Virus record (IMG/VR): IMGVR_UViG_3300045988_171958
Span: 64,001 to 128,000 of that record
DNA: 64,000 nucleotides
Reading direction: 5' to 3' (one strand)
Origin: a virus
In this document: piece by piece, positions 331 to 63,688 of the stretch
Layout: each line of letters opens with the position of its first letter
How positions within the stretch are numbered: the stretch's first letter is position 1
Notes under the pieces: generated by a model
Seen by the model: only the letters and a program-made list of their open reading frames with translations
The model's database searches: none
Told to the model about the DNA's origin: nothing
Made by a program: the position numbers and the translations under genes

Positions 331-1119
331 TTATTTTGTAATAAATTTAGAATTAGGATTAATAGTTCTAAGTATATCAGATAATATTTTCATGAAATTT
401 CCATATAATGCATTATATATTGGGCTTTCAAATTTCAAATTTATTGGAAATTTATCTATGTCATATTTTATTATTTCTCTTCCACTACATGAAATATAAA
501 AAAATACATCATTATCAGGATCATAAAAATTAATTGCATCTAATGATTCTGCTGTTAACCAAAAAGTATGATATTTCTTATCATCTTTTTTTGAAATTTC
601 TCCTTTTTTAATTTTTTCAGATAAACTATCATGATCTAATGAAAAGTTTAAAGGTATTAATACTTCTGTATTCTTTAATAAATTATTAGTAACTCCTTTA
701 ATTAAATTGTCATAAAATAAACCTTTTTCTCTTAATTTCATTACTCTGACCCAATAATCTGGTTCGGTTTCTTCTAATTTATCAGATAATTTTGCAAATT
801 CTTTTAAATTAATGACAACATTTCCGTATAAGTTAGTATCTTTATCATATAATGATCTTATACTTACTCCTGAAGCACACTTTATTCCATCCACAGTTGC
901 AGAAATAGATTTACGGTATACATCACCAGTAAATGGTGCTATCTTTTCTAGTTTATGTTTAAGTCCCTTATATTTATCCGGAACATAACTACCATCTGAT
1001 AATTTTTCATCTTCTACTGCTTTAAAGAAAGCACCCATGAATTTACCTGCTCTATCAAATTGTTTTTTAATTACTGCTTTATCTGCTGCAGATTTATATG
1101 TGGCACTAGAAAGCTCCAT
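331..1119 (-). CDS. hypothetical protein, 262 aa; isolated minus-strand gene, visibly more AT-rich than its neighbours
   Basis: Long ORF with no competing frame. It lies between a terminator and a divergent intergenic region. No motif recognised. Confidence 0.6.
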   Translation of the reverse strand: MELSSATYKSAADKAVIKKQFDRAGKFMGAFFKAVEDEKLSDGSYVPDKYKGLKHKLEKIAPFTGDVYRKSISATVDGIKCASGVSIRSLYDKDTNLYGNVVINLKEFAKLSDKLEETEPDYWVRVMKLREKGLFYDNLIKGVTNNLLKNTEVLIPLNFSLDHDSLSEKIKKGEISKKDDKKYHTFWLTAESLDAINFYDPDNDVFFYISCSGREIIKYDIDKFPINLKFESPIYNALYGNFMKILSDILRTINPNSKFITK

Positions 1120-1198
1120 AATAGGGTATTAAACTTTCAACAAGAAATTGTGATAATGATTTCATTTTTTTTTTTGTTTTTATATATAATAAAAATAA

Positions 1199-7334: not shown

Positions 7335-7626
7335 AAGCGTAATACTACAGCCCATCTAAAACCTCTCGAACCATGCTTAATGGGTGTGGCAGCATAAGAA
7401 AATAAATAAGCTGCTGCTAACGGTTAGGTCCATTTATAATAGATGGATGAGATCCGTGCTAAATTGATAAATTTATTTATCATAAAGGTGTATCGACTAT
7501 CCCTGATGAGTGTAAGGGAGTAGAATCTGAGATAAGCACAGATTCGGAGCGTGAGGCCTCTGTTCATTTATGATAAATGAACTTAGGAACATATAGTCAG
7601 TCCTGTTAGTAATAACAGATAAGATG
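7335..7626 (+). ncRNA. group I-type self-splicing intron, ORF-less, 292 nt
   Basis: Exon end ATGGGT (7329-7334) pairs with GCCCAT (7350-7355), giving a U-G pair at the 5' splice site. The last intron base is G (7626). Splicing 7334 to 7627 preserves the frame. Many stable hairpins are present (e.g. 7523-7545, 7562-7581, 7603-7618). Confidence 0.7.
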
Positions 7627-8670
7627 TGTAGAACATATAATGGTTATGATATCAATTGTGATTCAAATTATTTCTTTGACATATTTAGAAAGATAGCAGA
7701 AACTGGTAAAGTACAAGACAATTGGATGTTGTCTGCAAACCAGAAAGATGGTCGTGGAAACATTTGTCCTGTTACTATCATCATGCCTACTTTAGCTATG
7801 ATGGCAAAAGAATCTGGTAGTAAAGATGTAGTAGAGACATTCATGAAGCTGCTTGATAAGAAGATTCATGAAGCAAGAGAAATGCTTCTTGAAAGATTTA
7901 CTTTGATTTGCAGTCAGAATTCTAAGTCTGCTCCATTTATGTGGACAAACAATACAATGGTAGGATATATCCCTGAAGAAGGCCCTGTATCTGCTATGAA
8001 GCATGGTACATTAGCTATCGGACAAATTGGATTAGCAGAAACATTGCAGATATTGATTGGATGTGACCAGACAGAAGCTCAAGGTCTTGAACTTGGAAAG
8101 AGAATTGAAAAGCTATTCAATGATAGATGTACAGAATTCAAGAAAAATGATAAGTTGAATTTTGGAGTATACCTGACTCCAGGAGAATCCCTTTGTAAGA
8201 CAGCAATGACAAAATTCAGAGCACAATATGGTAATGATGTTAAAGGTGTTACTGATAATGACAATAAATTCTTTACAAATTCAACTCATGTACCTGTATA
8301 CAGAGATATTGATTGTTTCAAGAAAATTGATATTGAAAGTGAATTAGATAAGTTCAGTAATGCAGGATGCATCACTTATGTTGAAATGCCAAGTTCAGCA
8401 ACTAACAATATAGATGCTTGTGAAGAATTAGTGGTTTATGCAATGGATAAGGATCTTCCGTATTTCAGTTTGCATTTCCCATTGGATTATTGTAGAGATT
8501 GCCATAGTAAAGGTGACTTCAATGGAACATGCCCACATTGTGGAAGTCATAACATAGAGGAACTAAGGATGGTCACAGGCTACCTTAGTACTGATGTTTC
8601 TAATATGAATGAAGGTAAACAAGATGAAGTTTCTAAACGATTAAAACATGTTGAACAAAATTTAATTTAA
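7627..8670 (+). CDS. nrdD: anaerobic ribonucleoside-triphosphate reductase, exon 2 (Zn ribbon plus glycyl-radical domain)
   Basis: Begins CRTYNGYD. The C-terminus carries CRDCHSKGDFNGTCPHCGS and the glycyl-radical motif RMVTGYLS. Confidence 0.8.
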   Translation, partial: CRTYNGYDINCDSNYFFDIFRKIAETGKVQDNWMLSANQKDGRGNICPVTIIMPTLAMMAKESGSKDVVETFMKLLDKKIHEAREMLLERFTLICSQNSKSAPFMWTNNTMVGYIPEEGPVSAMKHGTLAIGQIGLAETLQILIGCDQTEAQGLELGKRIEKLFNDRCTEFKKNDKLNFGVYLTPGESLCKTAMTKFRAQYGNDVKGVTDNDNKFFTNSTHVPVYRDIDCFKKIDIESELDKFSNAGCITYVEMPSSATNNIDACEELVVYAMDKDLPYFSLHFPLDYCRDCHSKGDFNGTCPHCGSHNIEELRMVTGYLSTDVSNMNEGKQDEVSKRLKHVEQNLI

Positions 8671-14617: not shown

Positions 14618-16573
14618 ATGAGTAAAGTTTTAGGCTTGGATCTCGGTACTGGTATGTCATGTGTAGCAGTAATTGAGGCAGGTAAACCAGTTGTGGTAGT
14701 AAATGAAGAAGGAACAAGAACAACACCATCAGTAGTACAGATTACAAAAGATGAAGTGAAGATTGGTAATGCAGCAAAGCGTGCAATGGTAACAAATCCA
14801 AAGAACACTATCAGTTTTGTAAAGCGTTTGATGGGTGCTGATTTTAATGATGAGAATGTAAAGAAGATGCAGAAGCTTGCAACTTATGATATTGTAAATA
14901 AGTCTGGTAAGCCTTATGTTAAGATCGATGACAAAGAATATTCTCCTGAACAGATTTCATCTATGATTGTTGGCAAGATGAAAAAAGTTGCACAAGACTA
15001 TGTTGGTGAAGAAATTAAAGATGCAGTAATTACGGTACCAGCTTGGTTTGGTGATGCTGCCCGTACAGCAACTAAGACAGCAGGTGAGCTTGCTGGATTG
15101 AATGTACTTCGTGTAATTAATGAGCCAACATCAGCGGCATTGGCTGCTAACTTGATGGAAGACAAGAAAGACAAGACTGTTGTAGTAGTGGATTCTGGTA
15201 CTGGTACAGTCGATGTTTCTGTTCTTGAGTTGTCTGATGGTATGGCTGAAGTACTTGCATCAAATGGTGATGTATATCTTGGAGGTAAAGATTATGATGA
15301 TGCTATTGTAAAGTGGGTAGTTGATGAATTCAAGAAGTCAGATGATGTTGATTTGGCAAAGGACAATATGGCTTATGCTCGTGTAGTAGAATCTGCAGAA
15401 AAAGCAAAGATTGAATTGTCAAGTTCAACACAGACAGAGATTAATCTCCCATATATTTCTATGAAAGATGGTGCACCATTGAATCTTGCTATGACACTTT
15501 CTCGTGCTAAGTTTGAATCTCTTGTAAAGAATTTGAATGATCGTACTGTTGAAAAGGCAAAGATTGCTGTAGAGAAGGCTGGTAAGAAATATGATGATAT
15601 TGATTGTATCTTGCTTGTAGGTGGTACAACTCGTATTCCATCATTACAAGAGGCATTGAAGAAGGAATTCAATAAGCCATTGAATCAATCTGTAAATCCA
15701 GATGAAGCAGTTGCATTGGGTGCTGCTAAGCAAGCTGATATTCTTGCTGGTAATTCTACTGGTGATTTGTTGCTTCTTGATGTTACTCCATTGTCATTGG
15801 GTATCGAAACTAAGGGAGATATGATGGCACCTATTGTTGAAGCAAATACAACAATTCCATGTCAAAAGAAGCAAGTATTCACCACATCTATTGATAACCA
15901 ACCTATGGTTGAAGTGAATGTATTGCAAGGTGAACGTAAGATTGCTTCTGGCAATAAGTCTATTGGTAGATTCAGATTGGATGGAATTCCTATGGCAAAG
16001 GCCGGTGTACCACAGATTGAAGTTTGCTTTGATATTGATGCAAATGGTATTGTTACAGTTACTGCTAAAGATCTTGGTACTAATAAAGAACAGCATATTA
16101 CAATCAGTAACAACACACTTACTGATGAGGAAATCAAAGCAATCAAGGAAGATGCTGAGAAGTTCAAGGAAGCTGATGAAAAGAAGACACAAGAAACCAA
16201 TGACATCAATGATGCAGAACGTTATATGTTCAATACAAAAGAGATGATTGCCAATGAAGACTTTGTCAAGGCTACATCAGATGAAGATAGAGCTAAAGCA
16301 CAAGAAAAACTTGATGCATTAGAATCAATTGTTGTATTGAAGGACAAAGACCATGATAAGATCATGGAAGCTAAGAAAGAGTTAGAAGAAGTTTGGAACC
16401 CTATAGTTGAGAAATTCTATGCCGATAAGCAAAAGAGTCAAGATTGTACTAATAAGACAGAGACACAGGAAGGAAATGCAAAGGAAGAGAATGCGTCAAA
16501 TCCTGACAATGATAAGAAGGAAGAAAAATCAGATGATGTAAAAGTAGAAGATGCAGTAGTTGAAGATGCATAA
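14618..16573 (+). CDS. dnaK: Hsp70 chaperone DnaK
   Basis: LGLDLGTGMSCVAV, VITVPAWFGDAARTATK, DSGTGTVDVSVLE and ILLVGGTTRIPSLQ are present. A full substrate-binding domain and lid follow, with an acidic C-terminal tail. Confidence 0.95.
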   Translation: MSKVLGLDLGTGMSCVAVIEAGKPVVVVNEEGTRTTPSVVQITKDEVKIGNAAKRAMVTNPKNTISFVKRLMGADFNDENVKKMQKLATYDIVNKSGKPYVKIDDKEYSPEQISSMIVGKMKKVAQDYVGEEIKDAVITVPAWFGDAARTATKTAGELAGLNVLRVINEPTSAALAANLMEDKKDKTVVVVDSGTGTVDVSVLELSDGMAEVLASNGDVYLGGKDYDDAIVKWVVDEFKKSDDVDLAKDNMAYARVVESAEKAKIELSSSTQTEINLPYISMKDGAPLNLAMTLSRAKFESLVKNLNDRTVEKAKIAVEKAGKKYDDIDCILLVGGTTRIPSLQEALKKEFNKPLNQSVNPDEAVALGAAKQADILAGNSTGDLLLLDVTPLSLGIETKGDMMAPIVEANTTIPCQKKQVFTTSIDNQPMVEVNVLQGERKIASGNKSIGRFRLDGIPMAKAGVPQIEVCFDIDANGIVTVTAKDLGTNKEQHITISNNTLTDEEIKAIKEDAEKFKEADEKKTQETNDINDAERYMFNTKEMIANEDFVKATSDEDRAKAQEKLDALESIVVLKDKDHDKIMEAKKELEEVWNPIVEKFYADKQKSQDCTNKTETQEGNAKEENASNPDNDKKEEKSDDVKVEDAVVEDA

Positions 16574-16673: not shown

Positions 16674-17705
16674 ATGAAAGATTACTATGATATTTTAGGT
16701 GTATCTAGAGATGCATCAGAAGATGATATTAAAAGAGCATATAAGAAAATAATGCTCAAATATCATCCAGATAGAATGGGTAACAAATCTGATAAGGAAA
16801 AGAAAGAAGCTGAAGAGATTGTAAAATCAGCTAATGAAGCTTATGAGACTTTATCAGATCCACAAAAGAAGCAAGAATATGACAATCCAGGTTTTGGTGG
16901 AGGATTTGATCCATTTGCTGATTTCTTTGGTCATGATAGGTCAAATGGGACATCTTGGCATACTGAAGATTATCGAGATTTGAGAGGTAAGAATTGTGAA
17001 GGAAAATTGAATATTGATATTTCTGATTTCTATTTTAAAGGTATCAAGTCAGTAGCATATTTGAAGGATTTCAGATGTAATGTTTGTGATGGTGAAGGTG
17101 GTACTGGTGTTAAAGTTTGTTCACACTGTAATGGTACTGGTATGGTAACTGAATCTAGACGGCAAGGAAACATGTTCTTCCAATCTAGCCATCCATGCCC
17201 TTATTGTAATGGTAAAGGCAAGACAGTAGAACATAAGTGTGCGGCTTGTTCTGGTACTGGTTTTATTGGTAAGTTGGTAAATGAAGAAATTGACTTGTCA
17301 AGAATTCCATTGGAATATCTTTTGAAAGATGGTATTAGAATTGATGTTGGTCCACTTGGTTCTGAATCTAAATCTGTAAATGGAACAAATGGAGAACTCT
17401 ATATTACTGTACAACATACTTATGACCATAATAAATATCATATTGATGATTATGGTAATGTAGAAGGTAAAGAAGATATTGATTGGAAGGATGTAATGCT
17501 TGGTGGTAAGATTGAAATCAATTTACCTGGTAATAAGAAGATGAGAATAAATCTTCCAGAATGTTCTGAAGTAGGTAAGAAACTTAGAATAAAAGGAAAA
17601 GGTATTGATGGGCATGATTATACAATGGTTGTCAACCCAGTATTCCCTAAAACACTTGATAAAGAAACAAAGAAAGCAATTGAACATTTAAAAGAGAAAG
17701 GATAG
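16674..17705 (+). CDS. dnaJ: Hsp40 co-chaperone DnaJ (type I)
   Basis: J domain DYYDILGV...YHPDR, G/F region GFGGGFDPFADFFG, and four CxxCxGxG zinc-finger repeats. Confidence 0.95.
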   Translation: MKDYYDILGVSRDASEDDIKRAYKKIMLKYHPDRMGNKSDKEKKEAEEIVKSANEAYETLSDPQKKQEYDNPGFGGGFDPFADFFGHDRSNGTSWHTEDYRDLRGKNCEGKLNIDISDFYFKGIKSVAYLKDFRCNVCDGEGGTGVKVCSHCNGTGMVTESRRQGNMFFQSSHPCPYCNGKGKTVEHKCAACSGTGFIGKLVNEEIDLSRIPLEYLLKDGIRIDVGPLGSESKSVNGTNGELYITVQHTYDHNKYHIDDYGNVEGKEDIDWKDVMLGGKIEINLPGNKKMRINLPECSEVGKKLRIKGKGIDGHDYTMVVNPVFPKTLDKETKKAIEHLKEKG

Positions 17706-18794: not shown

Positions 18795-19688
18795 ATGGAA
18801 ATTTTAGACAAGAAATTTAGTAAGTACAAAGTATTTTTTGCAGAGAAAGGTATTACATCTACTTCTGCTAATCATGTTTCTAATAAAGGTAAAGAGTTGT
18901 TGAAGTCAGAACAGGCAATTCTTGACAATATCAATTTTGTCAATACTACTGCTTCATTGCTTTCTGGTGGTGAATCTAGAACTATTACCAAAGGTATGAG
19001 TGCAGATTCTTTTGAATCTATGCATAAGACTATTGCAAAGATTGCAAATCTGAATGCTATGAGTGCATGGATTCATGAAGCAATCAAAGCAAAGACAGAG
19101 ATTCTTGAGTATGTTCAGTCACTTAGTATTGACAACTGGGCTAAAGAACAGAATATTGAACTTCCAAATGCCGCATGTAAGGAATTTCCAATTACTGAAT
19201 CTGATGTAATTGGTACATGGGATGTTGCTAAAAGAAATAAGTATTATGTATATGAATCTTATTGTTCTCTTGTTGGTAAGTTCATTCATCCTAAAGGAGC
19301 ATTTTATGAAGCTAAAGCACAGATGAATAATGCTGTACAGAATCCAAACAAGGTAGAAGGTTCTGGTCGTGATGCAATCATTTATTCTTATGAACCGTCT
19401 ATGCCAATATCTGATGTAAATGTAGAATATAATTGGTTGTCTACTGAACTCCGACATAAAGAAGCAGAATTCAATAAGATGAAGCAAGAAATTGTAGATG
19501 CTATTACAGAAGATAAGCTTGCTAAGGCACAGAAGTTCAATGATGCATATGCAAAATATATTGATACAATGGAAAGTATCAGAAATAAGTTTGACATGTG
19601 GAAAACTAAGGCTGTAAAGGAAGTTAGTGCATTGAAGATTTATCTTCCACAAGGACCTAAGCAGACTTATGATGAAATCAACAAATAA
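18795..19688 (+). CDS. hypothetical protein, 297 aa
   Basis: Long ORF. The antisense ORFs inside it are considered spurious. Confidence 0.65.
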   Translation: MEILDKKFSKYKVFFAEKGITSTSANHVSNKGKELLKSEQAILDNINFVNTTASLLSGGESRTITKGMSADSFESMHKTIAKIANLNAMSAWIHEAIKAKTEILEYVQSLSIDNWAKEQNIELPNAACKEFPITESDVIGTWDVAKRNKYYVYESYCSLVGKFIHPKGAFYEAKAQMNNAVQNPNKVEGSGRDAIIYSYEPSMPISDVNVEYNWLSTELRHKEAEFNKMKQEIVDAITEDKLAKAQKFNDAYAKYIDTMESIRNKFDMWKTKAVKEVSALKIYLPQGPKQTYDEINK

Positions 19689-38587: not shown

Positions 38588-38712
38588 GGTATATATGAAA
38601 TAGATGAACCACATTCATTACATTTTACTATATAAGGGATATGTGCTCTTTTATTGATAGAATATTCTGTCAAATCTATTTCATTACCGCAATTGTTACA
38701 TTTAATCTTCAT
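38569..38712 (-). CDS. 47-aa zinc-ribbon micro-protein (not in the track)
   Basis: Hand translation gives MKIKCNNCGNEIDLTEYSINKRAHIPYIVKCNECGSSISYIPNKDGY, with two CxxC pairs. The ATG overlaps the stop of the ndk-like gene in another frame. Confidence 0.45.
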   Translation of the reverse strand: MKIKCNNCGNEIDLTEYSINKRAHIPYIVKCNECGSSISYIPNKDGY

Positions 38713-39142
38713 CTTTGTCTAGTTCATTATCTATTTTGAAACAGATTTCTGCTTCTCTTTCAACATTTTCTTCAGAATCAGAACTATGCATACAGTTCTT
38801 CATATCATCTTTACCATATTTGTCTCTTACTTCATCTTTTACTTTCTTCAAGTCTTTTATAGGATCTTTACAATCTTTGTAAAGTTTGTAAGCAATACAG
38901 TTACCTGAACTCATATAATGGCAAAGATCATCATAAAAATCTTCCTTTTCATGCACTTTATAAAGGTCCCTTGCTTCATCCAAGTTCATCTTTATAGTCT
39001 TATAGTTAGTGATGTCCCAACCAGCATTTTCTAACATATCTTCAAAATCATCTTGAACATCTAAGAATTCTGGTTTGAGAATTGCGAAGCCATTGAATTT
39101 CTTCTGCATGGCTTCACAAATATAGTTGGTTAAGCTTTTCAT
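38702..39142 (-). CDS. ndk: nucleoside diphosphate kinase-like protein with an N-terminal MKSLTNYICE leader
   Basis: Collinear with NDK: FAILKPE (FIAIKPD), YMSSGNCIAYKL (YMxSGPVVAMV), NCMHSSDSEENVEREAEICF (NxxHGSDSxxSAxREIxxWF). Confidence 0.7.
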   Translation of the reverse strand: MKSLTNYICEAMQKKFNGFAILKPEFLDVQDDFEDMLENAGWDITNYKTIKMNLDEARDLYKVHEKEDFYDDLCHYMSSGNCIAYKLYKDCKDPIKDLKKVKDEVRDKYGKDDMKNCMHSSDSEENVEREAEICFKIDNELDKDED

Positions 39143-39146
39143 TTAC

Positions 39147-39662
39147 TTAGAATTCTTTAAGATACTTTTTAAGATTTTTAATATCTTCCTTTCTGAATTT
39201 TTCATTTGGTACAAGATCGAATCCCCAAGAACATGTACCTTTATCTAATATTTCTTTAATGTCTTTACCGTCCTTTTCACTGTCAATAAGATCTTTATTG
39301 TAAAGAACATAATATTTTACAGATTTGCCACGATACTTACTGTTTGTCTTTATAATAGCAATACCTGTCTTATCAAACTTCATACCATTGTAAAATTCTG
39401 TCTCACTATCAGTATTACCCTTGACTTTAATGCTACTCTTAAGGACTTTAGCAATTTCTACCATGCCACGGATTTGAATACGATATCCATCAGTATCATA
39501 AGCAATACATAATGCCTTTTCACCTGGGTTGAAATTAAAGTCTTCTGATTGGCGTAATCCATCCTTATGTAAGAACATTCCATTTTTATTAGAACCATTA
39601 GTTTGGAATTGTTCTGTTATGTTATTTATGCTTTCATAAATGTAATTAGTTAAACTTTTCAT
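39147..39662 (-). CDS. hypothetical protein, 171 aa, with an N-terminal MKSLTNYIYE leader
   Basis: ORF. Its N-terminal decapeptide is near-identical to that of the neighbouring ndk-like gene, while the rest is unrelated. Confidence 0.65.
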   Translation of the reverse strand: MKSLTNYIYESINNITEQFQTNGSNKNGMFLHKDGLRQSEDFNFNPGEKALCIAYDTDGYRIQIRGMVEIAKVLKSSIKVKGNTDSETEFYNGMKFDKTGIAIIKTNSKYRGKSVKYYVLYNKDLIDSEKDGKDIKEILDKGTCSWGFDLVPNEKFRKEDIKNLKKYLKEF

Positions 39663-43382: not shown

Positions 43383-44255
43383 TTAAATAGTATTAGTATT
43401 TATGAAGTAGTCAGCAGAATGGTTCTTCTGAATCCATTCATCTATCTTCTGCATTTCTTCATTAGCCATGTCTCTCCATATACTGTAATTTAAAGTAACT
43501 CCACCTGGTAGTTTGAATTCAAATGTACCAAGAATAGTAGCCATAGAACGTAAGCCAAGACAAACACAATATCTGAAGAAATAGTAGTTCTTGTACAAGT
43601 CTTGTATCTTAAGTCTCTTATATACATTGAGCATCAAATCAGAATGTCCAATAGCTCCTAGTACAACAAGGTCATTACTATAAGTATTGTAATTATATGT
43701 TACTGGAGTATTGAATATGTAGTCAAAAGTATCAAGTTCATATAATGCCGCTGTAACATCAGTCAATGTATATCCACCACCTGATCCATATACATCAGAT
43801 AGGCTACCACCAACTCCAGATGCTATAGCTGAATTGTTCAGTATCATTCTTTCCAAAGAAAAGTCACCCATAACACCATAAGACCAACTATCTGTTGCTT
43901 TGTACAATCCATTTACAGAAAGGATTTGTGGTGGCAACTTAGCAATCATGTTAGCGCCACATTTTGTAAACTCCTTGAATGGAAGACAATACCAACGTTC
44001 TTCTATAGCTCCATCGCAATTTTCCCAGAAATATTGTGCTGCTTGCAATATCAATGGTGGAATAGCTGATGGTTGCATTGGTAAATTTATTGCACATGTC
44101 TGGGTTAATTCTTGAATGATTCTTTGTATGAACTGATAATCTATTTGATCCTCTATTTTTTGTTTTCTCTTATTATATTCTTCTATAGAAATTTCTTTCT
44201 GTATTAAAGGATTATTGCCTGGATTTATGTTTTGTATGCAACTCATTGAATTCAA
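43383..44255 (-). CDS. hypothetical protein, 290 aa (structural candidate)
   Basis: ORF overlapping the upstream gene by 4 nt. Confidence 0.65.
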   Translation of the reverse strand: MNSMSCIQNINPGNNPLIQKEISIEEYNKRKQKIEDQIDYQFIQRIIQELTQTCAINLPMQPSAIPPLILQAAQYFWENCDGAIEERWYCLPFKEFTKCGANMIAKLPPQILSVNGLYKATDSWSYGVMGDFSLERMILNNSAIASGVGGSLSDVYGSGGGYTLTDVTAALYELDTFDYIFNTPVTYNYNTYSNDLVVLGAIGHSDLMLNVYKRLKIQDLYKNYYFFRYCVCLGLRSMATILGTFEFKLPGGVTLNYSIWRDMANEEMQKIDEWIQKNHSADYFINTNTI

Positions 44256-45244
44256 TCATTTAACTTATTTAAAAATTGAGTTAATAATTCATCTATAAAA
44301 TCTTTTCCTTCTTGTAATGACCAAACTTCTTTAAAATTTAAATTATTTCTTTTAGCTGTTTCTCTTTTATTTACATCATATATAGTCCATGTCTTTATTG
44401 CATTTAAATAATATTTATGGCCATTTTTATATTTTGATTTCCATGATTCTAATTGATTTTTATCATCTACATTATTTTTGTTGTAAGGATGTTTACCATG
44501 GGTCCAATTTCCATTTAATTCAATAAAATAATTCAATTCTGGAATATAAAAATCACATTGCCATGGATATTTCTCTTTATCTCTATATTGTCTTTTTACT
44601 GTTGGAAATTTAGATTTTATATACAAGAAAAGATCTTCTTCCGGTTTAGAAGAATTAAATGAATTATGTTCTTTTAAATTTAAATTTCTATTATATTGAA
44701 CCTTTTCAGAAGACATTATATCTGACATTTTTGTTTTCCAAATAGGAGATTTGGATATCCAATCAACATTATATTTTTCAATACATGTCTTTTTATATTT
44801 CGCTTTTATAACTTCTGATTTGAATGGGTGATCTACTCCATATTTTCTTAAAGAAGTTTCTATGGCAATTTTTCTTTTTTCTTTATCTTTTAATGGTGTT
44901 TCATATCCATATCTATTTAAACAAGTTTGCTTATATTTTTCTAATTTTTCTTTTGCATTATATGAACATTCATGGCAACAATATATAGTAAATGGTTTTT
45001 TAAATTTATTTGTAAAGACTACTTTATTTCCACAAGTTGGACATATTGGTCTTATTTCTATTTTAAGTCTCATTCTTAAAATTGTTTCTTGCCTAGATAA
45101 AGAATCATTATATCTATTATCCAAATAATCAGATATATTAGGATATTTACTTAATTTTCTAATTTTCCAATAATCATTTTTTCCATCTTTATTAGAAATA
45201 ACTTTCAATATTATATTATCGTGATTTGTTTTAATATTTTCCAT
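44252..45244 (-). CDS. free-standing endonuclease-like protein (Zn finger + KYG-x-D/E-x-P repeats + Vsr/DUF559-type PD-(D/E)xK core), paralogue 1
   Basis: CPTCGNKV...CCHECS. Triple repeat RYGYETP/KYGVDHP/KYNVDWI. Core CDFYIPELNYFIELNGNWTHGKHPYN. Strongly AT-rich. Paralogous to 49363..50319. Confidence 0.65.
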   Translation of the reverse strand: MENIKTNHDNIILKVISNKDGKNDYWKIRKLSKYPNISDYLDNRYNDSLSRQETILRMRLKIEIRPICPTCGNKVVFTNKFKKPFTIYCCHECSYNAKEKLEKYKQTCLNRYGYETPLKDKEKRKIAIETSLRKYGVDHPFKSEVIKAKYKKTCIEKYNVDWISKSPIWKTKMSDIMSSEKVQYNRNLNLKEHNSFNSSKPEEDLFLYIKSKFPTVKRQYRDKEKYPWQCDFYIPELNYFIELNGNWTHGKHPYNKNNVDDKNQLESWKSKYKNGHKYYLNAIKTWTIYDVNKRETAKRNNLNFKEVWSLQEGKDFIDELLTQFLNKLND

Positions 45245-49362: not shown

Positions 49363-50319
49363 ATGGAATATGATAAAATTATTACAAATTTATTAATAAG
49401 TAATAAAAATAAAATTAGAAATGGAATATTAAGAAAAATAAAATTAAAATATCCTAATATATTATCTTATTTAATAAAAAGATATGATGATTCGGAATCA
49501 ATATCTGAAACTATAAGAAGAATTCAATATAATATAGAAAAAAGACCAGTTTGTAAAGTATGTGGTAAAAAGGTAAACTATATTTGTAATGGGAATTATA
49601 GAAATGTTTGTTCTTTTAAATGTGGAGAAATATATTGTAGAGAAAGAAGGTTTAAAACTATGATAGATAAATATGGTACACCATATCCTTATGAAAATAA
49701 AGATATAATGCGAAAAATGAGGGAAAATTTAAAAAATAAATATGGTGTTGATAATCCTTCTAAATTAGAAAATGTAAAAGAAAAGAAGAAAAATACATTT
49801 ATAAAACATTATGGTGTAGATAATTATTTCAAAACTGAAAAATCAGTTAAAAGATCCCATACAAAAGAATGTATAAATAAACAATATTTGACAAAAATAA
49901 AAAATAATTCATTTGGAAAATCTAAACAGGAAGATACAATATATGAAAAAATAAAAGAAGTATATCCAGATGTTATAAGACAATATAAAGATAAAATAAG
50001 ATATCCATATAATTGTGATTTTTATATTCCTGAGATAGATTTATTTATAGAATACCAGGGTTATTATACTCATGGTAAACATCCATTTAATATTAATAAT
50101 GAAAATGATAAAGAATTAATGGAGAAATATATAAATAAATATGGTAATAACAATCAACAATATACTATATGGTGTGTAAAAGATGTAGAAAAAAGGAATA
50201 CTGCAAAAAATAATAATTTAAATTATATTGAATTATTTAATTTTAAAAAATTAGATGAATTAATTGAAATAATAAAAAATAAAAACTATATTAAAAATAT
50301 TAGTAATTTAGTAATTTAA
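49363..50319 (+). CDS. free-standing endonuclease-like protein, paralogue 2
   Basis: CKVCGKKV...CSFKCG. Repeats KYGTPYP/KYGVDNP/HYGVDNY. Core CDFYIPEIDLFIEYQGYYTHGKHPFN. Extremely AT-rich. Confidence 0.65.
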   Translation: MEYDKIITNLLISNKNKIRNGILRKIKLKYPNILSYLIKRYDDSESISETIRRIQYNIEKRPVCKVCGKKVNYICNGNYRNVCSFKCGEIYCRERRFKTMIDKYGTPYPYENKDIMRKMRENLKNKYGVDNPSKLENVKEKKKNTFIKHYGVDNYFKTEKSVKRSHTKECINKQYLTKIKNNSFGKSKQEDTIYEKIKEVYPDVIRQYKDKIRYPYNCDFYIPEIDLFIEYQGYYTHGKHPFNINNENDKELMEKYINKYGNNNQQYTIWCVKDVEKRNTAKNNNLNYIELFNFKKLDELIEIIKNKNYIKNISNLVI

Positions 50320-57354: not shown

Positions 57355-58995
57355 ATGGATTTCAATAGTTGTATGCCTGCCCAAGAAGTATTGTTGACAA
57401 TGGCTATTAATGATATGTCATCAATATCTATACTTGGGTGTGATGATATAAAATATGACACCTCTTGTTTAGAAGTGGCATGGAGTTATGATGGTATCAA
57501 TTGGTCATGCTTTGCTTCTTATAATGATGCAGAAAAGGTATTAGTTGATAGTCCATCTGATTTCTATATAAAGTTTAAAGTAAATGGTATTGTTAATGAT
57601 GTAAAAGATGGTGATGAAAGTGTAGACTATACTACATCGATTGCCTCTGGCATCTCATCACCATCTTGTGAATCATCTAGCAAATACAATCCTTATGCCG
57701 GTCTTACTTCTGCTATAGCTTTACAACAATCATTGTCGGATAGTGTTGCTTGTATGATTGGTATACCTATATATTATTTCAAACTTAAACCTGATTCTGG
57801 TTCTAAAGATATCACATTCAAAGAATATACTCTTATGAATGTAGAATCAGTAAAGCAGATAAAGCTTATAGTAAATGAAGGTCAGATGCCAAGCAGCAAA
57901 CCAGAATTTTCTGATTTTGGATTAGATTGGCAAACTGATTGGGAAACTGAGATAAGCAAGACGATGTTTGCTACAGCTTTTGGAATTACTGCTCAACCAA
58001 TGGAAGGTGATTTGATATATGTTCCAATGATGAAGAGAATGTGGATGGTCAATGAATCTTATGAAGAAAAGAATGGTTCATTGATGTGGAACAATACCAC
58101 ATTCAAATTGTCATTAGTAAAATATCAAGAAAAAGGTTCTGTTGATTTAGGAGATTTTGATTCTACTATAGATAGCTTGGTAAAGACAAAGTATGAAGAT
58201 TTGTTTGGTGATAAAGAAGGATTAGATAGTGGAGAAGAAACAACGGAAGCACCAACATATTCTGGAAACGGTATGTATCCTGTATATGAATCTGATTCCT
58301 GTAGGAAGTATGTTACTTCAGAAGGTACAAACTTTGTGGATACAAATATCTATCAAAGAGGAACATTGATAAGTGACAGATGTTACAAATTTGATCCATC
58401 ACTTCTATATCAGTTTAAGAATAAGATAGTATATCAAAGAAAATATTGTGGAGATGAAGGTAGTACAAGCATTATTGTTGGTTTGAATGGAATGTATGAT
58501 TATGATTCTGAACTCATAAAGATAGGCCATATCATATTGAGATTGAAAATGACAAACAGAAGAATCAAAGTAAGCTTAGATAATGTAGAAGATTGTTCTG
58601 TATACTTACCTAAGCAAGATGCCAATATTACTGACAATCATTATTTCATATATTTAAGATGGTCTAAATCTAGAAATGTAGTGGAATTAGGAGTATCAGA
58701 ATATTCTTACAATGAAAATGTTCCTCTATATAAGCTACAACCAGCACATTACAAGTTTAACTTAGATAATTTGACAGCGCATAAAGTAGCAAAGTGGAAT
58801 ATAGAAATGGTAGAAGATGAAAAGCAAGATGTAATGATAAATGGTTTACCTGGAACAGTTACTAACTTCAAACTTTTTGATTCTTATATAGATAATGTAT
58901 CAGAACTACTGCAACAGTATCCTACAAGTCAGCATCTTATGATAAATGATACAGCTAGAAAGATAATAGATATGCAAGGAAGTGGAAGTGCATAA
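57355..58995 (+). CDS. hypothetical structural protein, 546 aa
   Basis: ORF following the lysin gene. Confidence 0.65.
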   Translation: MDFNSCMPAQEVLLTMAINDMSSISILGCDDIKYDTSCLEVAWSYDGINWSCFASYNDAEKVLVDSPSDFYIKFKVNGIVNDVKDGDESVDYTTSIASGISSPSCESSSKYNPYAGLTSAIALQQSLSDSVACMIGIPIYYFKLKPDSGSKDITFKEYTLMNVESVKQIKLIVNEGQMPSSKPEFSDFGLDWQTDWETEISKTMFATAFGITAQPMEGDLIYVPMMKRMWMVNESYEEKNGSLMWNNTTFKLSLVKYQEKGSVDLGDFDSTIDSLVKTKYEDLFGDKEGLDSGEETTEAPTYSGNGMYPVYESDSCRKYVTSEGTNFVDTNIYQRGTLISDRCYKFDPSLLYQFKNKIVYQRKYCGDEGSTSIIVGLNGMYDYDSELIKIGHIILRLKMTNRRIKVSLDNVEDCSVYLPKQDANITDNHYFIYLRWSKSRNVVELGVSEYSYNENVPLYKLQPAHYKFNLDNLTAHKVAKWNIEMVEDEKQDVMINGLPGTVTNFKLFDSYIDNVSELLQQYPTSQHLMINDTARKIIDMQGSGSA

Positions 58996-59403: not shown

Positions 59404-60039
59404 ATGAGTAAAACTGGATGGAAAAAGGTTGATAAAGAAAATCCTGAATGGAATGACATTGATACAATGTTGAATGAGTCTGATCCAGTTTTGACTGATG
59501 ATCCAGATGAAGAGCTTGAAATGCCTAAGCTTGATCTTGACTTGGAAAAAGTAGAATCTGAATCAGCAACACAAGCTCAGTTCATAGTAGAACGTCTTTC
59601 GGGATATTATTTTGATGCAAAGTATGTTGATGAACATCCTTATATTGTTTGTAAGATACAAACAGAAATGCAAAGTATAAGGAGACTTCTCAAGATGCTC
59701 ACAATAAATGAGAAAGCTCAGGATAGCATCATAATGGCCATAGCATTGTCCATGTCAAAGTCAACATTATATCAGTCTCTTACATCATTACAAAATTCTA
59801 CTTTATCTATACAAAAGCAACTTGATGATGTTGTTACTAAACTAGAAGATATATTCAGAATGATGCAAGAGGAATGCCAAAAATCATTCGAGGAAAAAGA
59901 TAAAGAAGATGATGGTAATGGTAAGATGGTAATAAAAGGTTCTAGAGAGTTTATTGAAGAAATGACAGCACGCTTAAATCAAAGAAAATACACAACCACA
60001 ACTACTAATAAAACTAATGAAGGTCAAGCAACAGCTTGA
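59404..60039 (+). CDS. acidic coiled-coil protein, 211 aa
   Basis: ORF with an acidic N-terminal third and helical heptad-like middle. Confidence 0.6.
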   Translation: MSKTGWKKVDKENPEWNDIDTMLNESDPVLTDDPDEELEMPKLDLDLEKVESESATQAQFIVERLSGYYFDAKYVDEHPYIVCKIQTEMQSIRRLLKMLTINEKAQDSIIMAIALSMSKSTLYQSLTSLQNSTLSIQKQLDDVVTKLEDIFRMMQEECQKSFEEKDKEDDGNGKMVIKGSREFIEEMTARLNQRKYTTTTTNKTNEGQATA

Positions 60040-60055: not shown

Positions 60056-60676
60056 TTATATGCATGTCCAAATCTCTCTTATCTTATTGAATTCATTATA
60101 AGGAAGTGTCCAATATCCGTTTCTTCCATAGCTTCTACCCCAACTGTTTCTGATAATGAAACCATTCTTATCATATCCAACAACTGCAACACAATGACTT
60201 CCTTCTAACTCTGCTCCATTCCAAAAGTCATTTCTTGAACTATCATATACAGGTAATGCTATCAATACTGGCCCATTGCATAATATTGCTTGCTTCAATA
60301 TTTGTTCACTTCCTATCATTGCAAAGTCATGTATCTTAATAGTTCCAACATTTGATTTGATACCGTGTGTTCTTGCTAATGACAATGCTTCTTTGATAGA
60401 CATACCATTATCATGACCCTTATTTGATCTTGCATTATATATTTGCTTCAAATCAATATTGTTGTCTTTCTTTGAAGTCTTCAACTTCATATCAGTAATC
60501 CAATTCAAAAAGCATGCAAGAGCATGGGTGACACACATGTTTGTAGAACCTTGATCTGTTATTGGGCTAAGATAATTTACAAAGCTATATTCATCAGGAA
60601 TCTTATTAGTTAAATTCTTAGTGATCTTCTTATCATGAGCATCAATTTTCGATGCATTGCAACCTAACATTCTCAT
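60056..60676 (-). CDS. papain-like (C1 family) cysteine peptidase
   Basis: QGSTNMCVTHALACF (Gln/Cys), GSHCVAVVGYD (His) and IRNSWGRSYGRNGYW (Asn-Ser-Trp) occur in the canonical order. Confidence 0.8.
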   Translation of the reverse strand: MRMLGCNASKIDAHDKKITKNLTNKIPDEYSFVNYLSPITDQGSTNMCVTHALACFLNWITDMKLKTSKKDNNIDLKQIYNARSNKGHDNGMSIKEALSLARTHGIKSNVGTIKIHDFAMIGSEQILKQAILCNGPVLIALPVYDSSRNDFWNGAELEGSHCVAVVGYDKNGFIIRNSWGRSYGRNGYWTLPYNEFNKIREIWTCI

Positions 60677-62686: not shown

Positions 62687-62938
62687 ATGAAGACATTAGT
62701 AGAAATTCTTGAAGGAAAATCAATCAAGCTTTCTCAAGCATATAACAGATTAGCAGGTATGGATCCTAAGCAAAAACTTGGATTCTATGATGAGTACTCA
62801 GATCCTAAGAAAGAATATACAGTAGAAACATTCAGAAATGACCTTAGAGGTGTCATTGACATTGTTGGTGATGTTGATATCAATGAAATCACCAATAAGG
62901 AAGCTAAGAAGTACCTTATTAATTTGATGAATAAATAA
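62687..62938 (+). CDS. hypothetical protein, 83 aa, with an MKTLVEILEG leader; paralogue of 63167..63415
   Basis: C-terminal ...YTVETFRNDLRGVIDIVGDVDINEI..AKKYLINLMNK aligns with the paralogue. Confidence 0.6.
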   Translation: MKTLVEILEGKSIKLSQAYNRLAGMDPKQKLGFYDEYSDPKKEYTVETFRNDLRGVIDIVGDVDINEITNKEAKKYLINLMNK

Positions 62939-62953
62939 ATCGAAAAATGTTTG

Positions 62954-63157
62954 ATGTTTCTTAAATTACCAGAAAAGATATCACAAACAAAAAGATCACA
63001 TTACAATAAGAACAAACATAGCAAAATTGCGTTTTCTTCTAAAGAGGACGCAATTTTATTTTTATATAAACAAAAGAATGATGACTTAGAACCATATTAT
63101 TGTAATTATTGCAATAAGTGGCATGTCGGACATAAAAATAAAAATCAAACTAAATAA
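62954..63157 (+). CDS. small basic CxxC protein, about 67 aa
   Basis: ORF with YYCNYCNKWHVGH. The track start 62951 is a TTG. Confidence 0.5.
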   Translation: MFLKLPEKISQTKRSHYNKNKHSKIAFSSKEDAILFLYKQKNDDLEPYYCNYCNKWHVGHKNKNQTK

Positions 63158-63166
63158 CATATAGAT

Positions 63167-63415
63167 ATGAAATCTCTTAATGAATTCTTAATAAAAGAAG
63201 AAAAATCAATGATACAATTGGCTGATGCTGTAGACAAGTTAAATGAACTTGGTAAAAAGAGCATTCCAGCTAAGAGAGATCGGGATGACAAACAATATAC
63301 AGCTGATGAGTTAGCTAATGACTTGCAAGTTGTTATTGACTTATGTGGTAATATTGATATTGATGACTTAATTGGTATTAAAGTAAAGAATTATTTAAAA
63401 ACATTGTTTAAATAA
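63167..63415 (+). CDS. hypothetical protein, 82 aa, with an MKSLNEFLIKEE leader
   Basis: Paralogue of 62687..62938 (...YTADELANDLQVVIDLCGNIDIDDL..VKNYLKTLFK). Confidence 0.6.
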   Translation: MKSLNEFLIKEEKSMIQLADAVDKLNELGKKSIPAKRDRDDKQYTADELANDLQVVIDLCGNIDIDDLIGIKVKNYLKTLFK

Positions 63416-63450
63416 AAAGAATGAGGAAGACTTAAGTCTTCCTCATTTTG
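63414..63450. terminator. bidirectional terminator between convergent genes
   Basis: Palindrome ATGAGGAAGACTT/AAGTCTTCCTCAT flanked by an A-run and a T-run. Confidence 0.8.
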
Positions 63451-63688
63451 TATTGCTTCTCAATATATCTTTTACTTTATTCAAAACTGTCTTATTAGGA
63501 CAATCTTCTCCTGCTCTGTTCATATAGAATACAAGTCTTTTCATTGCTTGACCTTCTGAATCTGAAGCATCTAACAATATTTGAGCTATTTCTCTAGGGT
63601 TTGTTTTAGTAAACAAACCATCAGGTGGATCCCATTTACCTTCTATATCAGATAGCTTTTCATTTACAAATTCACTTAATTTTTTCAT
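63443..63688 (-). CDS. small protein, 81 aa, with an MKKLSEFVNE leader; the body is DUF3175-like (from memory)
   Basis: ...WDPPDGLFTKTNPREIAQILL...AMKRLVFYMNRAGEDCPNKTVLNKVKDIL. Confidence 0.55.
   Translation of the reverse strand: MKKLSEFVNEKLSDIEGKWDPPDGLFTKTNPREIAQILLDASDSEGQAMKRLVFYMNRAGEDCPNKTVLNKVKDILRSNTK

What the first reader, a model, noticed from the sequence alone, without database searches (positions are those of the whole stretch)
62687..63688. Second cluster of small proteins carrying the same MK[ST]L..F[ILV].E leader
Three small genes carry leaders that fit the T4 CTS even more closely, with E6-F7-(I/L/V)8-x-E10 compared with T4 E6-F7-I8-A9-E10. They are 62687..62938 (MKTLVEILEG), 63167..63415 (MKSLNEFLIKEE) and, on the opposite strand, 63443..63688 (MKKLSEFVNE). 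Two of them are paralogues. The third has a different body that looks DUF3175-like. The same leader on different bodies and on both strands argues for a functional targeting or processing tag rather than simple gene duplication.
Basis: partly seen in the sequence, partly recalled or inferred. Interest (0 to 1): 0.65.

Follow-up and report, generated by a model that had tools for sequence, protein, structure and literature searches.

The report
T4-like cargo tag on phage proteins
Three small genes of an uncultured gut jumbo phage begin with a ten-residue tag much like the signal phage T4 uses to load proteins into its head, and related phages carry the same tag on dozens of unrelated proteins, so it probably marks proteins that are packed into the virus particle.

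Summary
The three ORFs exist as described. ORF1 and ORF2 are paralogues, and ORF3 is a DUF3175 protein.

The shared N-terminus is not chance. In this phage and its relatives, ^MK.L..[FY][ILV].E starts 101 of 1017 genes. The same core occurs only 15 times inside 243,610 residues. It is absent from equally AT-rich control phages. The leader sits on at least 56 unrelated bodies, including NDK, HAD, a kinase and DUF3175. The linker to the body varies in length, leaderless paralogues exist, and synonymous codons vary.

The conserved positions are 2, 4, 7, 8 and 10. Positions 4 and 7 are the ones shown to drive targeting in the T4 capsid targeting sequence (CTS), and 8 and 10 drive its processing. 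A matrix trained only on distant relatives ranks T4 ipIII and ipII first among 245 T4 genes.

Near-identical genomes encode a gp21-family (Peptidase_S77) protease fused to a scaffold, plus a Gp23-family capsid protein. The scaffold carries 7–10 tandem repeats with the same Φ-x-x-aromatic-[IV]-x-E core.

Best explanation, at about 0.65: a T4-type capsid-targeting propeptide that the prohead protease removes. Packaging and cleavage are inferred, not shown. I rate it a new variant of a known kind.

The parts
62687..62938 (+). ORF1, 83 aa. It carries a degenerate leader MKTLVEILE (codons 1-9, 62687-62713) and a small body of unknown function. It is a paralogue of ORF2.
   Evidence: PSSM -5.1, fifth of 85 genes. 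It is present in all strains examined.
63167..63415 (+). ORF2, 82 aa. Leader MKSLNEFLIKE (codons 1-11, 63167-63199) followed by an alpha/beta body. The gene is present in some strains and absent in others.
   Evidence: PSSM 9.7; only two representative homologues, both with the leader MK.LN..LTE; AF2: residues 5-13 have pLDDT below 50.
63443..63688 (-). ORF3, 81 aa. Canonical leader MKKLSEFVNE (63659-63688) followed by a DUF3175 three-helix body.
   Evidence: (PSSM 14.5).
39147..39662 (-). 171-aa protein with leader MKSLTNYIYE. Its start overlaps the stop of the upstream 1160-aa gene (ATGA). That gene string begins with a neck-protein gene.
   Evidence: (PSSM 23.1).
38702..39142 (-). Nucleoside diphosphate kinase with leader MKSLTNYICE. 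The Pfam NDK domain starts at residue 19.
   Evidence: nine orthologues keep the leader; PSSM 22.3.
1106..1165 (-). 19-codon ORF MKSLSQFLVESLIPYYGAF*. It is a perfect leader that is out of frame with the 262-aa ORF 331-1119(-) which it overlaps. Most likely a decapitated leader.
   Evidence: the arrangement is identical in three independent assemblies.
57355..58995 (+). Neck protein of the T4 gp14 / head closure Hc2 family. It anchors the head module in which relatives carry their leader-bearing genes.
59404..60039 (+). Acidic 211-aa protein. In relatives its homologue lies directly upstream of the protease-scaffold gene. In this phage a block of more than 20 kb, which includes the finding's ORFs, follows it instead.
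43383..44255 (-). Second neck protein, homologous to PTm1 ORF-002. It heads the minus-strand gene string that ends with the 171-aa and NDK leader genes.
63418..63449 (.). Terminator-like hairpin readable on both strands, between the convergent ORF2 and ORF3.

Best explanation
The first roughly ten residues, M-K-x-L-x-x-[YF]-[ILV]-x-E, form a modular cargo tag of the T4 capsid-targeting-sequence type.

Proposed mechanism, all inferred. The short amphipathic helix (L4, aromatic 7, I8) docks the newly made protein onto the scaffolding core of the prohead. It may do so by mimicking one unit of the scaffold's own tandem repeat (Φ-x-x-W-[IV]-x-E). After shell assembly the gp21-family (Peptidase_S77) prohead protease would cut after the Glu of [ILV]-x-E. 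That cut frees the tag and leaves the body inside the head, ready to be ejected with the DNA.

Shown here:
- The tag is real, sits at the N-terminus, is under selection at the peptide level, and is modular.
- It has the same conserved positions as the T4 CTS.
- The phage lineage has the T4-type protease, scaffold and capsid protein.
- The scaffold carries the same motif in tandem.

ORF3, ORF2 and, weakly, ORF1 would be small internal or ejected proteins. The function of their bodies is unknown.
For: 1. N-terminal enrichment.
- The strict leader starts 101 of 1017 genes, against 15 internal matches in 243,610 residues.
- 28% of genes in the head-module loci of relatives score PSSM>=5, against 0.3-0.9% in PTm1, T4 and 1.04 Mb of other Gp23-family loci.

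2. Modularity.
- 56 body clusters carry the tag.
- Recognised domains start at residues 17-19: NDK, AAA_33 and CTP_transf_like.
- The linker is variable, and some homologues have a duplicated or a lost leader.
- A leaderless paralogue exists.
- AF2 gives a low-confidence detached helix.

3. Peptide-level selection. L4 is encoded by TTA, CTT, TTG, CTA and CTG, and the other conserved positions also vary synonymously. Leader genes share no upstream DNA.

4. Same determinants as T4.
- In a family defined only by its body, information per position peaks at 4, 2, 10, 8 and 7.
- In T4 IPIII, targeting depends on residues 4 and 7 and processing on 8 and 10 (PMC9026906).
- A PSSM trained on distant relatives ranks T4 ipIII (8.5) and ipII (8.1) first of 245 T4 genes.

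5. Machinery.
- A 525-aa Peptidase_S77 protein and a Gp23-family capsid protein lie on the same IMG/VR contigs that carry ORF3 and the neck gene at 95-97% identity.
- The gp21 His and Ser motifs are conserved.

6. Scaffold link.
- There are 7-10 tandem 12-residue repeats such as ..PEVQKWIVEQYS...
- [ILV]xE is enriched, 19 observed against 8.0 expected, as in T4 gp22 with 20 against 10.1.
- The protease-scaffold proteins are the only proteins with 7 or more internal copies of the core pattern.

7. Location. In relatives the leader genes lie between the neck gene and the protease/capsid genes. In the window, the 171-aa and NDK pair is translationally coupled to a gene string that begins with a neck-protein gene.
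Against: - No virion proteomics or N-terminal sequencing exists for any member, so packaging and cleavage rest on analogy.
- The number of tagged genes is very large. They make up half of the genes in locus L037.
- Many bodies are ordinary nucleotide-metabolism enzymes (NDK, HAD, kinase, nucleotidyltransferase). These are not typical capsid cargo.
- The residue after the Glu is often Lys, unlike the T4 sites listed.
- ORF2 has its Glu at 11 and ORF1 at 9. ORF1 also lacks the aromatic residue at 7.
- In this gut phage the protease and capsid genes are not next to the finding's ORFs. No leader genes flank them in L268.
- PTm1, a cultured relative, has only two candidate leader genes.
- The similarity to the T4 CTS could be convergence on a ten-residue helix.
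Confidence: 0.65

Rival explanations
1. The tag is a docking peptide for an intracellular assembly that is not the capsid. Candidates are a nucleotide-synthesis or replication complex, or a phage-made compartment. The tag would not be a capsid signal.
For: - Many tagged bodies are nucleotide-metabolism enzymes: NDK, an AAA_33 kinase, a HAD hydrolase and a cytidylyltransferase-like protein. This recalls multi-enzyme complexes.
- Tagged genes are very numerous.
- The phage encodes its own DnaK and DnaJ, which could handle tagged clients.
Against: - The motif's only other concentrated location is the prohead scaffold repeats.
- Its conserved positions match the T4 CTS determinants, and T4 internal proteins top the PSSM ranking.
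- It ends in the [ILV]-x-E motif expected for a gp21-type protease.
- Tagged genes cluster in the head module of relatives.
Confidence: 0.15
2. The tag is only a processing or activation propeptide. The prohead protease or another protease, such as the adjacent papain-like peptidase, cleaves it, but it plays no part in targeting.
For: - The [ILV]-x-E end is conserved.
- A Peptidase_C1 gene lies at 60056-60676(-) inside the same region.
Against: - Positions 4 and 7 lie upstream of the cut. They are not needed for processing in T4, yet they are among the most conserved here.
- Bodies such as NDK need no activation.
- Leaderless paralogues exist.
Confidence: 0.08
3. The similarity reflects constraints on translation initiation or mRNA at AT-rich 5' ends, or plain amino-acid composition.
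For: - K, L, Y, F, I and N are the amino acids encoded by A/T-only codons.
- Leader codons are slightly more A/T-ending than body codons.
Against: - L4 uses five codons from two codon families, and E10, K2, Y7 and I8 all vary synonymously.
- The conservation is position-specific and includes Glu (GAA or GAG).
- PTm1 (29.7% GC) and other AT-rich T4-like loci lack the pattern.
- No upstream DNA is shared.
- The enrichment is more than 300-fold over internal sites.
Confidence: 0.03
4. All tagged proteins are diverged paralogues, and the N-terminus is simply the best-conserved part of a common ancestor.
For: - Some tagged genes do form local paralogue arrays, for example ORF1/ORF2 and the ..EKLKINKDS.. 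series in L037.
Against: - The bodies belong to unrelated Pfam families with different folds: NDK, HAD, AAA_33, DUF285, DUF3175 and CTP_transf_like.
- There are 56 BLAST clusters.
- The spacing between leader and body is variable.
Confidence: 0.03

Closest known systems
Capsid targeting sequence (CTS) of phage T4 internal proteins IPII and IPIII, and the related propeptides of IPI, gp24 and Alt. These are removed by the gp21 prohead protease.
   Same: - Both are N-terminal, about 10 residues long and start at Met1 with MK.
- Both have hydrophobic or aromatic residues at 4 and 7, I/L/V at 8 and Glu at 10.
- Both sit on unrelated bodies.
- Both genomes have a gp21-family protease, a scaffold rich in [ILV]-x-E, and a Gp23-family capsid protein.
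- T4 ipII and ipIII score highest in T4 under this clade's PSSM.
   Different: - Position 4 is Leu here, against Tyr or Phe in T4.
- The residue after the cut is often Lys.
- Tens of tagged genes per region, against a handful in T4.
- The cargo includes metabolic enzymes.
- The protease is fused to a scaffold made of tandem 12-residue repeats that carry the same core motif.
- The phages are uncultured jumbo phages of about 290 kb from gut and rumen. Their nearest cultured relatives mostly infect Bacteroidota.
- Nothing here has been tested experimentally.
Propeptides of head and ejection proteins in giant phages phiKZ, 201phi2-1 and SPN3US, cut by gp175/gp245 proteases
   Same: A diverged gp21-like protease removes N-terminal propeptides after a Glu. 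The propeptides are proposed to target proteins into the prohead (PMC5694885; PMC9026906).
   Different: Most of those propeptides are longer than 100 residues, with few sequence determinants beyond the Glu. They have no shared ten-residue consensus at Met1.
Encapsulin cargo-loading peptides (comparison from my own knowledge)
   Same: A short conserved terminal peptide on unrelated enzymes directs them into an HK97-fold shell.
   Different: These peptides are usually C-terminal and are not cleaved. They belong to a cellular nanocompartment, not a virion, and show no sequence similarity to this tag.
Pfam DUF3175 (PF11373), relevant only to the ORF3 body
   Same: ORF3 residues 23-78 match the profile above the gathering score.
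   Different: The phage-type family carries the leader and a variable linker in front of the domain. The function of the domain is unknown, and no solved fold matches it.

Membership tests
T4-type capsid targeting sequence (CTS) | A peptide of about 10 residues at the extreme N-terminus, starting at Met1 | tested here: met
   Every six-frame regex hit in the window lies at an ORF start. N-terminal matches are strongly enriched over internal ones.
T4-type capsid targeting sequence (CTS) | Hydrophobic or aromatic determinants at residues 4 and 7 (the targeting positions in T4 IPIII) | tested here: met
   L4 carries 3.38 bits and F/Y/W7 1.96 bits in a family defined only by its body. The T4 rule comes from PMC9026906. 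ORF1 has Ile rather than an aromatic residue at 7.
T4-type capsid targeting sequence (CTS) | I/L at residue 8 and Glu at residue 10, giving the gp21 cleavage motif L/I-x-E | tested here: inconclusive
   Met for ORF3, NDK, the 171-aa protein and most relatives, where E10 is found in 94% of regex hits. ORF2 has I9-K10-E11 and ORF1 has I7-L8-E9. Whether these shifted sites are cut is unknown.
T4-type capsid targeting sequence (CTS) | The phage encodes a gp21-family prohead protease, a scaffold and a gp23-family capsid protein | tested here: met
   PF03420 and PF07068 lie next to each other in L268. They are on the same IMG/VR contigs as L026-L031, which carry ORF3. The catalytic motifs align with T4 gp21. 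None of this lies inside the 64-kb window itself.
T4-type capsid targeting sequence (CTS) | The same tag on otherwise unrelated proteins | tested here: met
   56 body clusters with different Pfam families.
T4-type capsid targeting sequence (CTS) | The tagged proteins are present in the virion with the tag removed | not testable with these tools
   No proteomic data could be reached. The PTm1 virion paper is not in the library.
T4-type capsid targeting sequence (CTS) | The tag alone is enough to package a foreign protein | not testable with these tools
   This needs an experiment.
T4-type capsid targeting sequence (CTS) | Sequence resemblance to the T4 CTS beyond chance | tested here: met
   A PSSM trained on 77 leaders from distant relatives ranks ipIII and ipII first and second of 245 T4 genes, with a gap of more than 13 bits to ordinary genes. 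This cannot separate homology from convergence.
Pfam DUF3175 (ORF3 body) | Profile match above the curated gathering score | tested here: met
   29.3 bits against a cut-off of 27, E=9.9e-7. The 118 homologues are almost all pre-annotated PF11373.
ORF1/ORF2 paralogue family | Significant full-length pairwise similarity | tested here: met
   BLASTP E=2e-10 at 33% identity. Only two further representative homologues turned up among 1.84 billion proteins.

The most novel reading that the evidence does not exclude
The ten-residue leader is a general cargo-loading code in a whole clade of T4-related jumbo phages, from marine PTm1-like phages to gut and rumen phages.

- It marks tens of fast-turning-over proteins per genome for packaging into the head and co-injection with the DNA.
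- The marked proteins include NDK, a Pnkp-like kinase and phosphatase, an NMNAT-like nucleotidyltransferase and a sigma-factor-like protein. Together they would form a pre-loaded first-strike enzyme kit.
- The code works because the tag copies one unit of the scaffold's tandem repeat, so it co-assembles with the scaffold and is cut by the same protease.

If so, the injected proteome of uncultured phages could be read directly from sequence.
Probability: 0.4. Interest if true: 0.8.

Novelty: new variant of a known kind. Interest (0 to 1): 0.65.

Why it matters
If the tag is a capsid-loading signal, it gives a sequence-only way to list the proteins that uncultured gut and rumen jumbo phages carry in their heads and inject.

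- In T4 this class of proteins holds counter-defence factors such as IPI* and Alt.
- The finding would extend the T4 CTS principle, so far documented mainly in close T-even relatives, to very distant Gp23/gp21-type phages.
- The match between the tag and the scaffold repeats suggests a concrete mechanism that can be tested.
- It would also offer a natural, short packaging tag for engineering phages of Bacteroidota.

Tried and rejected
- Megablast of 60-64 kb of the window against GenBank phages found no match.
- PHROGs gave nothing for ORF1-3.
- Foldseek against the PDB gave no significant fold match for the ORF3 or ORF2 models. The functions of the bodies stay unknown.
- I tried to reach the head module through a profile of PTm1-like capsid proteins in IMG/VR. 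It returned only other T4-like lineages. The module was reached instead through the capsid protein of the closer relative L032.
It said nothing about distribution.
- I looked for a promoter or DNA cassette shared upstream of leader genes and found none.
- A homology-defined 7-residue PSSM finds only 2-3 scaffold repeats per protein, because it demands Leu where the repeats have Val. The looser class pattern shows the link.
- Rfam found nothing in the window.
- Chance or composition, mRNA-level constraint and common descent were each considered as explanations and rejected. The reasons are given under the rival explanations.

Full report
**1. The observation**

The window is 30.8% GC. It is part of an uncultured jumbo phage of about 290 kb found repeatedly in human-gut metagenomes, for example NCBI CACVDK010000001.1 at 293,853 bp.

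The three ORFs exist as described.
- ORF1 is 62687-62938 (+), 83 aa, starting MKTLVEILEG.
- ORF2 is 63167-63415 (+), 82 aa, starting MKSLNEFLIKEE.
- ORF3 is 63443-63688 (-), 81 aa, starting MKKLSEFVNE.

ORF1 and ORF2 are paralogues at 33% identity, E=2e-10. ORF3 is unrelated to them and passes the Pfam DUF3175 threshold.

The literal motif E6-F7-[ILV]8-x-E10 holds only for ORF3. ORF2 has its Glu at position 11. ORF1 has I7 and E9.

**2. More than chance**

A loose regex run on all six frames of the window hits five places, and every one is an ORF start. The five are ORF2, ORF3, the 38.7-39.7 kb pair (an NDK and a 171-aa protein), and a 19-codon ORF at 1165(-).

Just beyond the window's end the same phage has further tagged proteins of 399, 203, 123 and 126 aa.

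I fetched loci from relatives through the neck protein. In the window plus those loci:
- The strict leader starts 101 of 1017 genes.
- The same core occurs 15 times inside 243,610 residues.

I then trained a PSSM (position-specific scoring matrix) only on leaders from relatives with about 50% neck-protein identity. In the window it scores the 171-aa protein 23.1, NDK 22.3, ORF3 14.5, ORF2 9.7 and ORF1 -5.1. The next gene scores -14.1.

Share of genes with PSSM>=5:

| Sequence set | Genes scoring PSSM>=5 |
|---|---|
| Clade head-module loci | 28.4% |
| Tenacibaculum phage PTm1 (29.7% GC) | 0.3% |
| T4 | 0.9% |
| 1.04 Mb of other Gp23-family phage loci | 0.8% |

Most of the hits in the last set come from one PTm1-like contig, which has its own variant of the leader, MKSLSTHITESF.

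**3. A modular peptide tag**

- The 121 tagged proteins fall into 56 clusters by their bodies.
- Recognised domains begin at residues 17-19: NDK, AAA_33 kinase and cytidylyltransferase-like. HAD, DUF285 and DUF3175 bodies also occur.
- NDK orthologues in nine relatives all keep a leader in front of ..NGFAILKPEF.
- The ORF3 family has 118 hits. In it the leader stays at Met1 while the distance to the body motif ranges from 9 to 74 residues. A few members have a duplicated leader and a few have lost it.
- The ORF1/ORF2 family is tiny, with two other representatives among 1.84 billion proteins. Both start MK.LN..LTE.
- Some strains lack ORF2. Some carry a third paralogue, MNKMNFKLSDAISKLE.., which lacks the leader and starts exactly where the ORF2 body starts.
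- AlphaFold2 models both ORF3 and ORF2 with a short helix at residues 4-10. That helix has low confidence and is detached from a confidently folded body.
- Codons at the conserved positions vary synonymously. L4 alone uses TTA, CTT, TTG, CTA and CTG.
- Nothing is shared upstream of the ATG.

Selection therefore acts on the peptide, not on the RNA or DNA.

**4. The link to head assembly**

The nearest cultured relatives are jumbo phages: Tenacibaculum PTm1 and pT24, Chryseobacterium MA9V and Sphingomonas PAU. They have T4-type head genes. In PTm1 these are annotated as prohead protease/scaffold, major capsid protein and portal, and the capsid protein belongs to PF07068.

In relatives of the window phage the gene order is:
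1. neck protein,
2. a variable number of leader-bearing genes,
3. an acidic protein of about 200-240 aa,
4. the protease-scaffold protein of about 570 aa,
5. the capsid protein.

The window has the neck gene (57355-58995) and the acidic protein (59404-60039). After them comes an inserted block of more than 20 kb that holds the finding's ORFs.

The protease (525 aa, PF03420 Peptidase_S77) and the capsid protein (PF07068) of this lineage were found in L268. They lie on the same IMG/VR contigs that carry ORF3 and the neck gene at 95-97% identity. The gp21 His and Ser motifs align.

The C-terminal scaffold part of the protease protein holds 7-10 tandem 12-residue repeats such as ..PEVQKWIVEQYS... 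Each repeat reads Φ-x-x-W-[IV]-x-E. That is the same core as the leader's L-x-x-[YF]-I-x-E.
- [ILV]-x-E is enriched there, 19 observed against 8.0 expected (p<0.0005). T4 gp22 shows the same, 20 against 10.1.
- Across 250,361 residues the class pattern occurs at 201 N-termini and 161 internal sites.
- The only proteins with 7 or more internal copies are the protease-scaffold proteins.

**5. Comparison with T4**

From the T4 record, with cleavage positions taken from my own knowledge and from PMC9026906:
- ipII and ipIII: MKTYQEFIAE|A
- ipI: MKTFKEF...ITE|A
- gp24: MAKINELLRE|S
- alt: MELITELFDE|D
- gp23: ..FLTE|AEIGG
- gp22 begins MLKEQLIAE|A

The review PMC9026906 states that the first 10 residues of IPIII suffice for packaging. 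It also states that targeting depends mainly on residues 4 and 7, and processing on residues 8 and 10.

In the DUF3175-type family, which I defined only by its body, the information per position is highest at 4, 2, 10, 8 and 7. It is lowest at 3, 5 and 9.

The clade-trained PSSM ranks T4 ipIII and ipII first and second among 245 T4 genes. Third is gp61.1, which starts MKTFKEFIKEDM.

**6. Mechanism**

Shown:
- A conserved, modular, peptide-level N-terminal tag.
- T4-type protease, scaffold and capsid genes in the same genomes.
- The same motif repeated in the scaffold.
- The same critical positions as in the T4 CTS.

Inferred:
- The tag docks cargo on the scaffolding core, possibly as a mimic of one scaffold repeat.
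- The S77 protease cuts after the Glu.
- The bodies stay in the head and are ejected.

My confidence is about 0.65.

The main doubts are these.
- There are no proteomic data.
- The number of tagged genes is very large.
- Many of the cargo proteins are ordinary metabolic enzymes.
- Lys often follows the Glu.
- The Glu is shifted in ORF1 and ORF2.
- The similarity to T4 could be convergent.

Rival explanations:

| Rival | Confidence |
|---|---|
| Docking tag for a non-capsid assembly | 0.15 |
| Processing-only propeptide | 0.08 |
| mRNA or compositional effect | 0.03 |
| Common descent | 0.03 |

**7. Function of the three bodies**

The function of the three bodies is unknown. There are no PHROG hits and no PDB fold matches. 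After the predicted cut they would be proteins of about 8 kDa, with pI 8.1, 4.9 and 8.1. By analogy with the T4 internal proteins they may be ejected accessory or counter-defence factors. That is speculation.

**8. Novelty**

I found no description of this leader in the searchable literature. The kind is known: the T4 CTS and its internal proteins.

What appears new is the following.
- It occurs in very distant jumbo phages whose cultured relatives mostly infect Bacteroidota.
- It is massively expanded.
- It carries enzyme cargo.
- It matches the tandem scaffold repeats.

I therefore rate it a new variant of a known kind, with interest 0.65.

Noticed in passing
window 1106-1165 (-), overlapping the start of ORF 331-1119 (-): A 19-codon ORF, MKSLSQFLVESLIPYYGAF*, carries a perfect leader but is out of frame with the 262-aa ORF it overlaps. 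The arrangement is identical in three independent assemblies and follows an A10-11 run. It could be a decapitated leader, a programmed frameshift or a mini-ORF.
   Followed up: partly
L268 8337-9914 (same phage lineage); also L057 17955-19640, L051 13918-15657, L044 3456-5165: The prohead protease (Peptidase_S77) is fused to a scaffold domain made of 7-10 tandem 12-residue repeats (..PEVQKWIVEQYS..). This would give a predicted cleavage site every 12 residues.
   Followed up: partly
L267 (T4 NC_000866) 18966-19130 (-), gene 61.1: The 54-aa T4 hypothetical protein gp61.1 starts MKTFKEFIKEDM. It scores third in T4 under the leader PSSM, just behind ipIII and ipII, so it may be an unrecognised CTS-bearing protein.
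   Followed up: no
L186 3280, 3872, 13493, 14644, 14922, 16500 (+); PTm1 141765-142505 and 224211-224432: PTm1-like marine phages have their own leader variant with His at position 7 (MKSLSTHITESF, MKELIKHIQESF, MKKLYDHISENL). There are six copies around the capsid gene of one contig but only two in PTm1 itself.
   Followed up: partly
L002 14370-15569 (+), about 4 kb beyond the window end: The 399-aa leader-bearing protein (MKKLSEFVVEAKSL) matches phrog_351, 'RNA polymerase sigma factor', at E=4e-11. It has no Pfam hit. It may be a packaged transcription factor.
   Followed up: no
window 60056-60676 (-): A papain-like cysteine peptidase (Pfam Peptidase_C1, phrog 'peptidase') is encoded on the opposite strand, right after the acidic head-module protein. 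This is unusual for a phage and could be a second processing enzyme.
   Followed up: no
window 14618-16573 and 16674-17705 (+): By the look of their N-terminal sequences, these two ORFs appear to be phage-encoded DnaK (Hsp70) and DnaJ homologues. No family search was run on them.
   Followed up: no
window 62951-63415; loci L012, L015-L017, L028, L031: The small-gene cluster varies between strains. ORF2 is absent from several otherwise near-identical genomes, and a third, leaderless 72-aa paralogue is present in others. ORF1, the 67-aa Cys-rich ORF and ORF3 are found in nearly all strains examined (the 67-aa ORF is missing in L028).
   Followed up: yes
proteins P0258, P0263, P0269, P0287 (ORF3 family); P0242, P0246, P0252: Some DUF3175-type homologues carry two leader-like segments in tandem (MKNLKQFISQNEKMSSIDDYILEQEQ..). 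Others have the leader, then ..RLKIKKND, then a zinc-ribbon inserted before the domain.
   Followed up: no
window 63418-63449: A 14-bp-stem hairpin with T-runs on both sides lies between the convergent ORF2 and ORF3. It looks like a bidirectional terminator and overlaps the last codons of ORF3.
   Followed up: partly
window 5880-7397 and 7624-8670 (+): The anaerobic ribonucleotide reductase NrdD is split into two adjacent ORFs (505 aa and 348 aa, both PF13597) separated by about 226 nt. Rfam found no intron at gathering threshold.
   Followed up: partly
window 44252-45244 (-), 49363-50319 (+); L011-L020: There are several DUF7487 / homing-endonuclease genes. Their presence and position differ between strains, and one in L016 abuts ORF3.
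   Followed up: no
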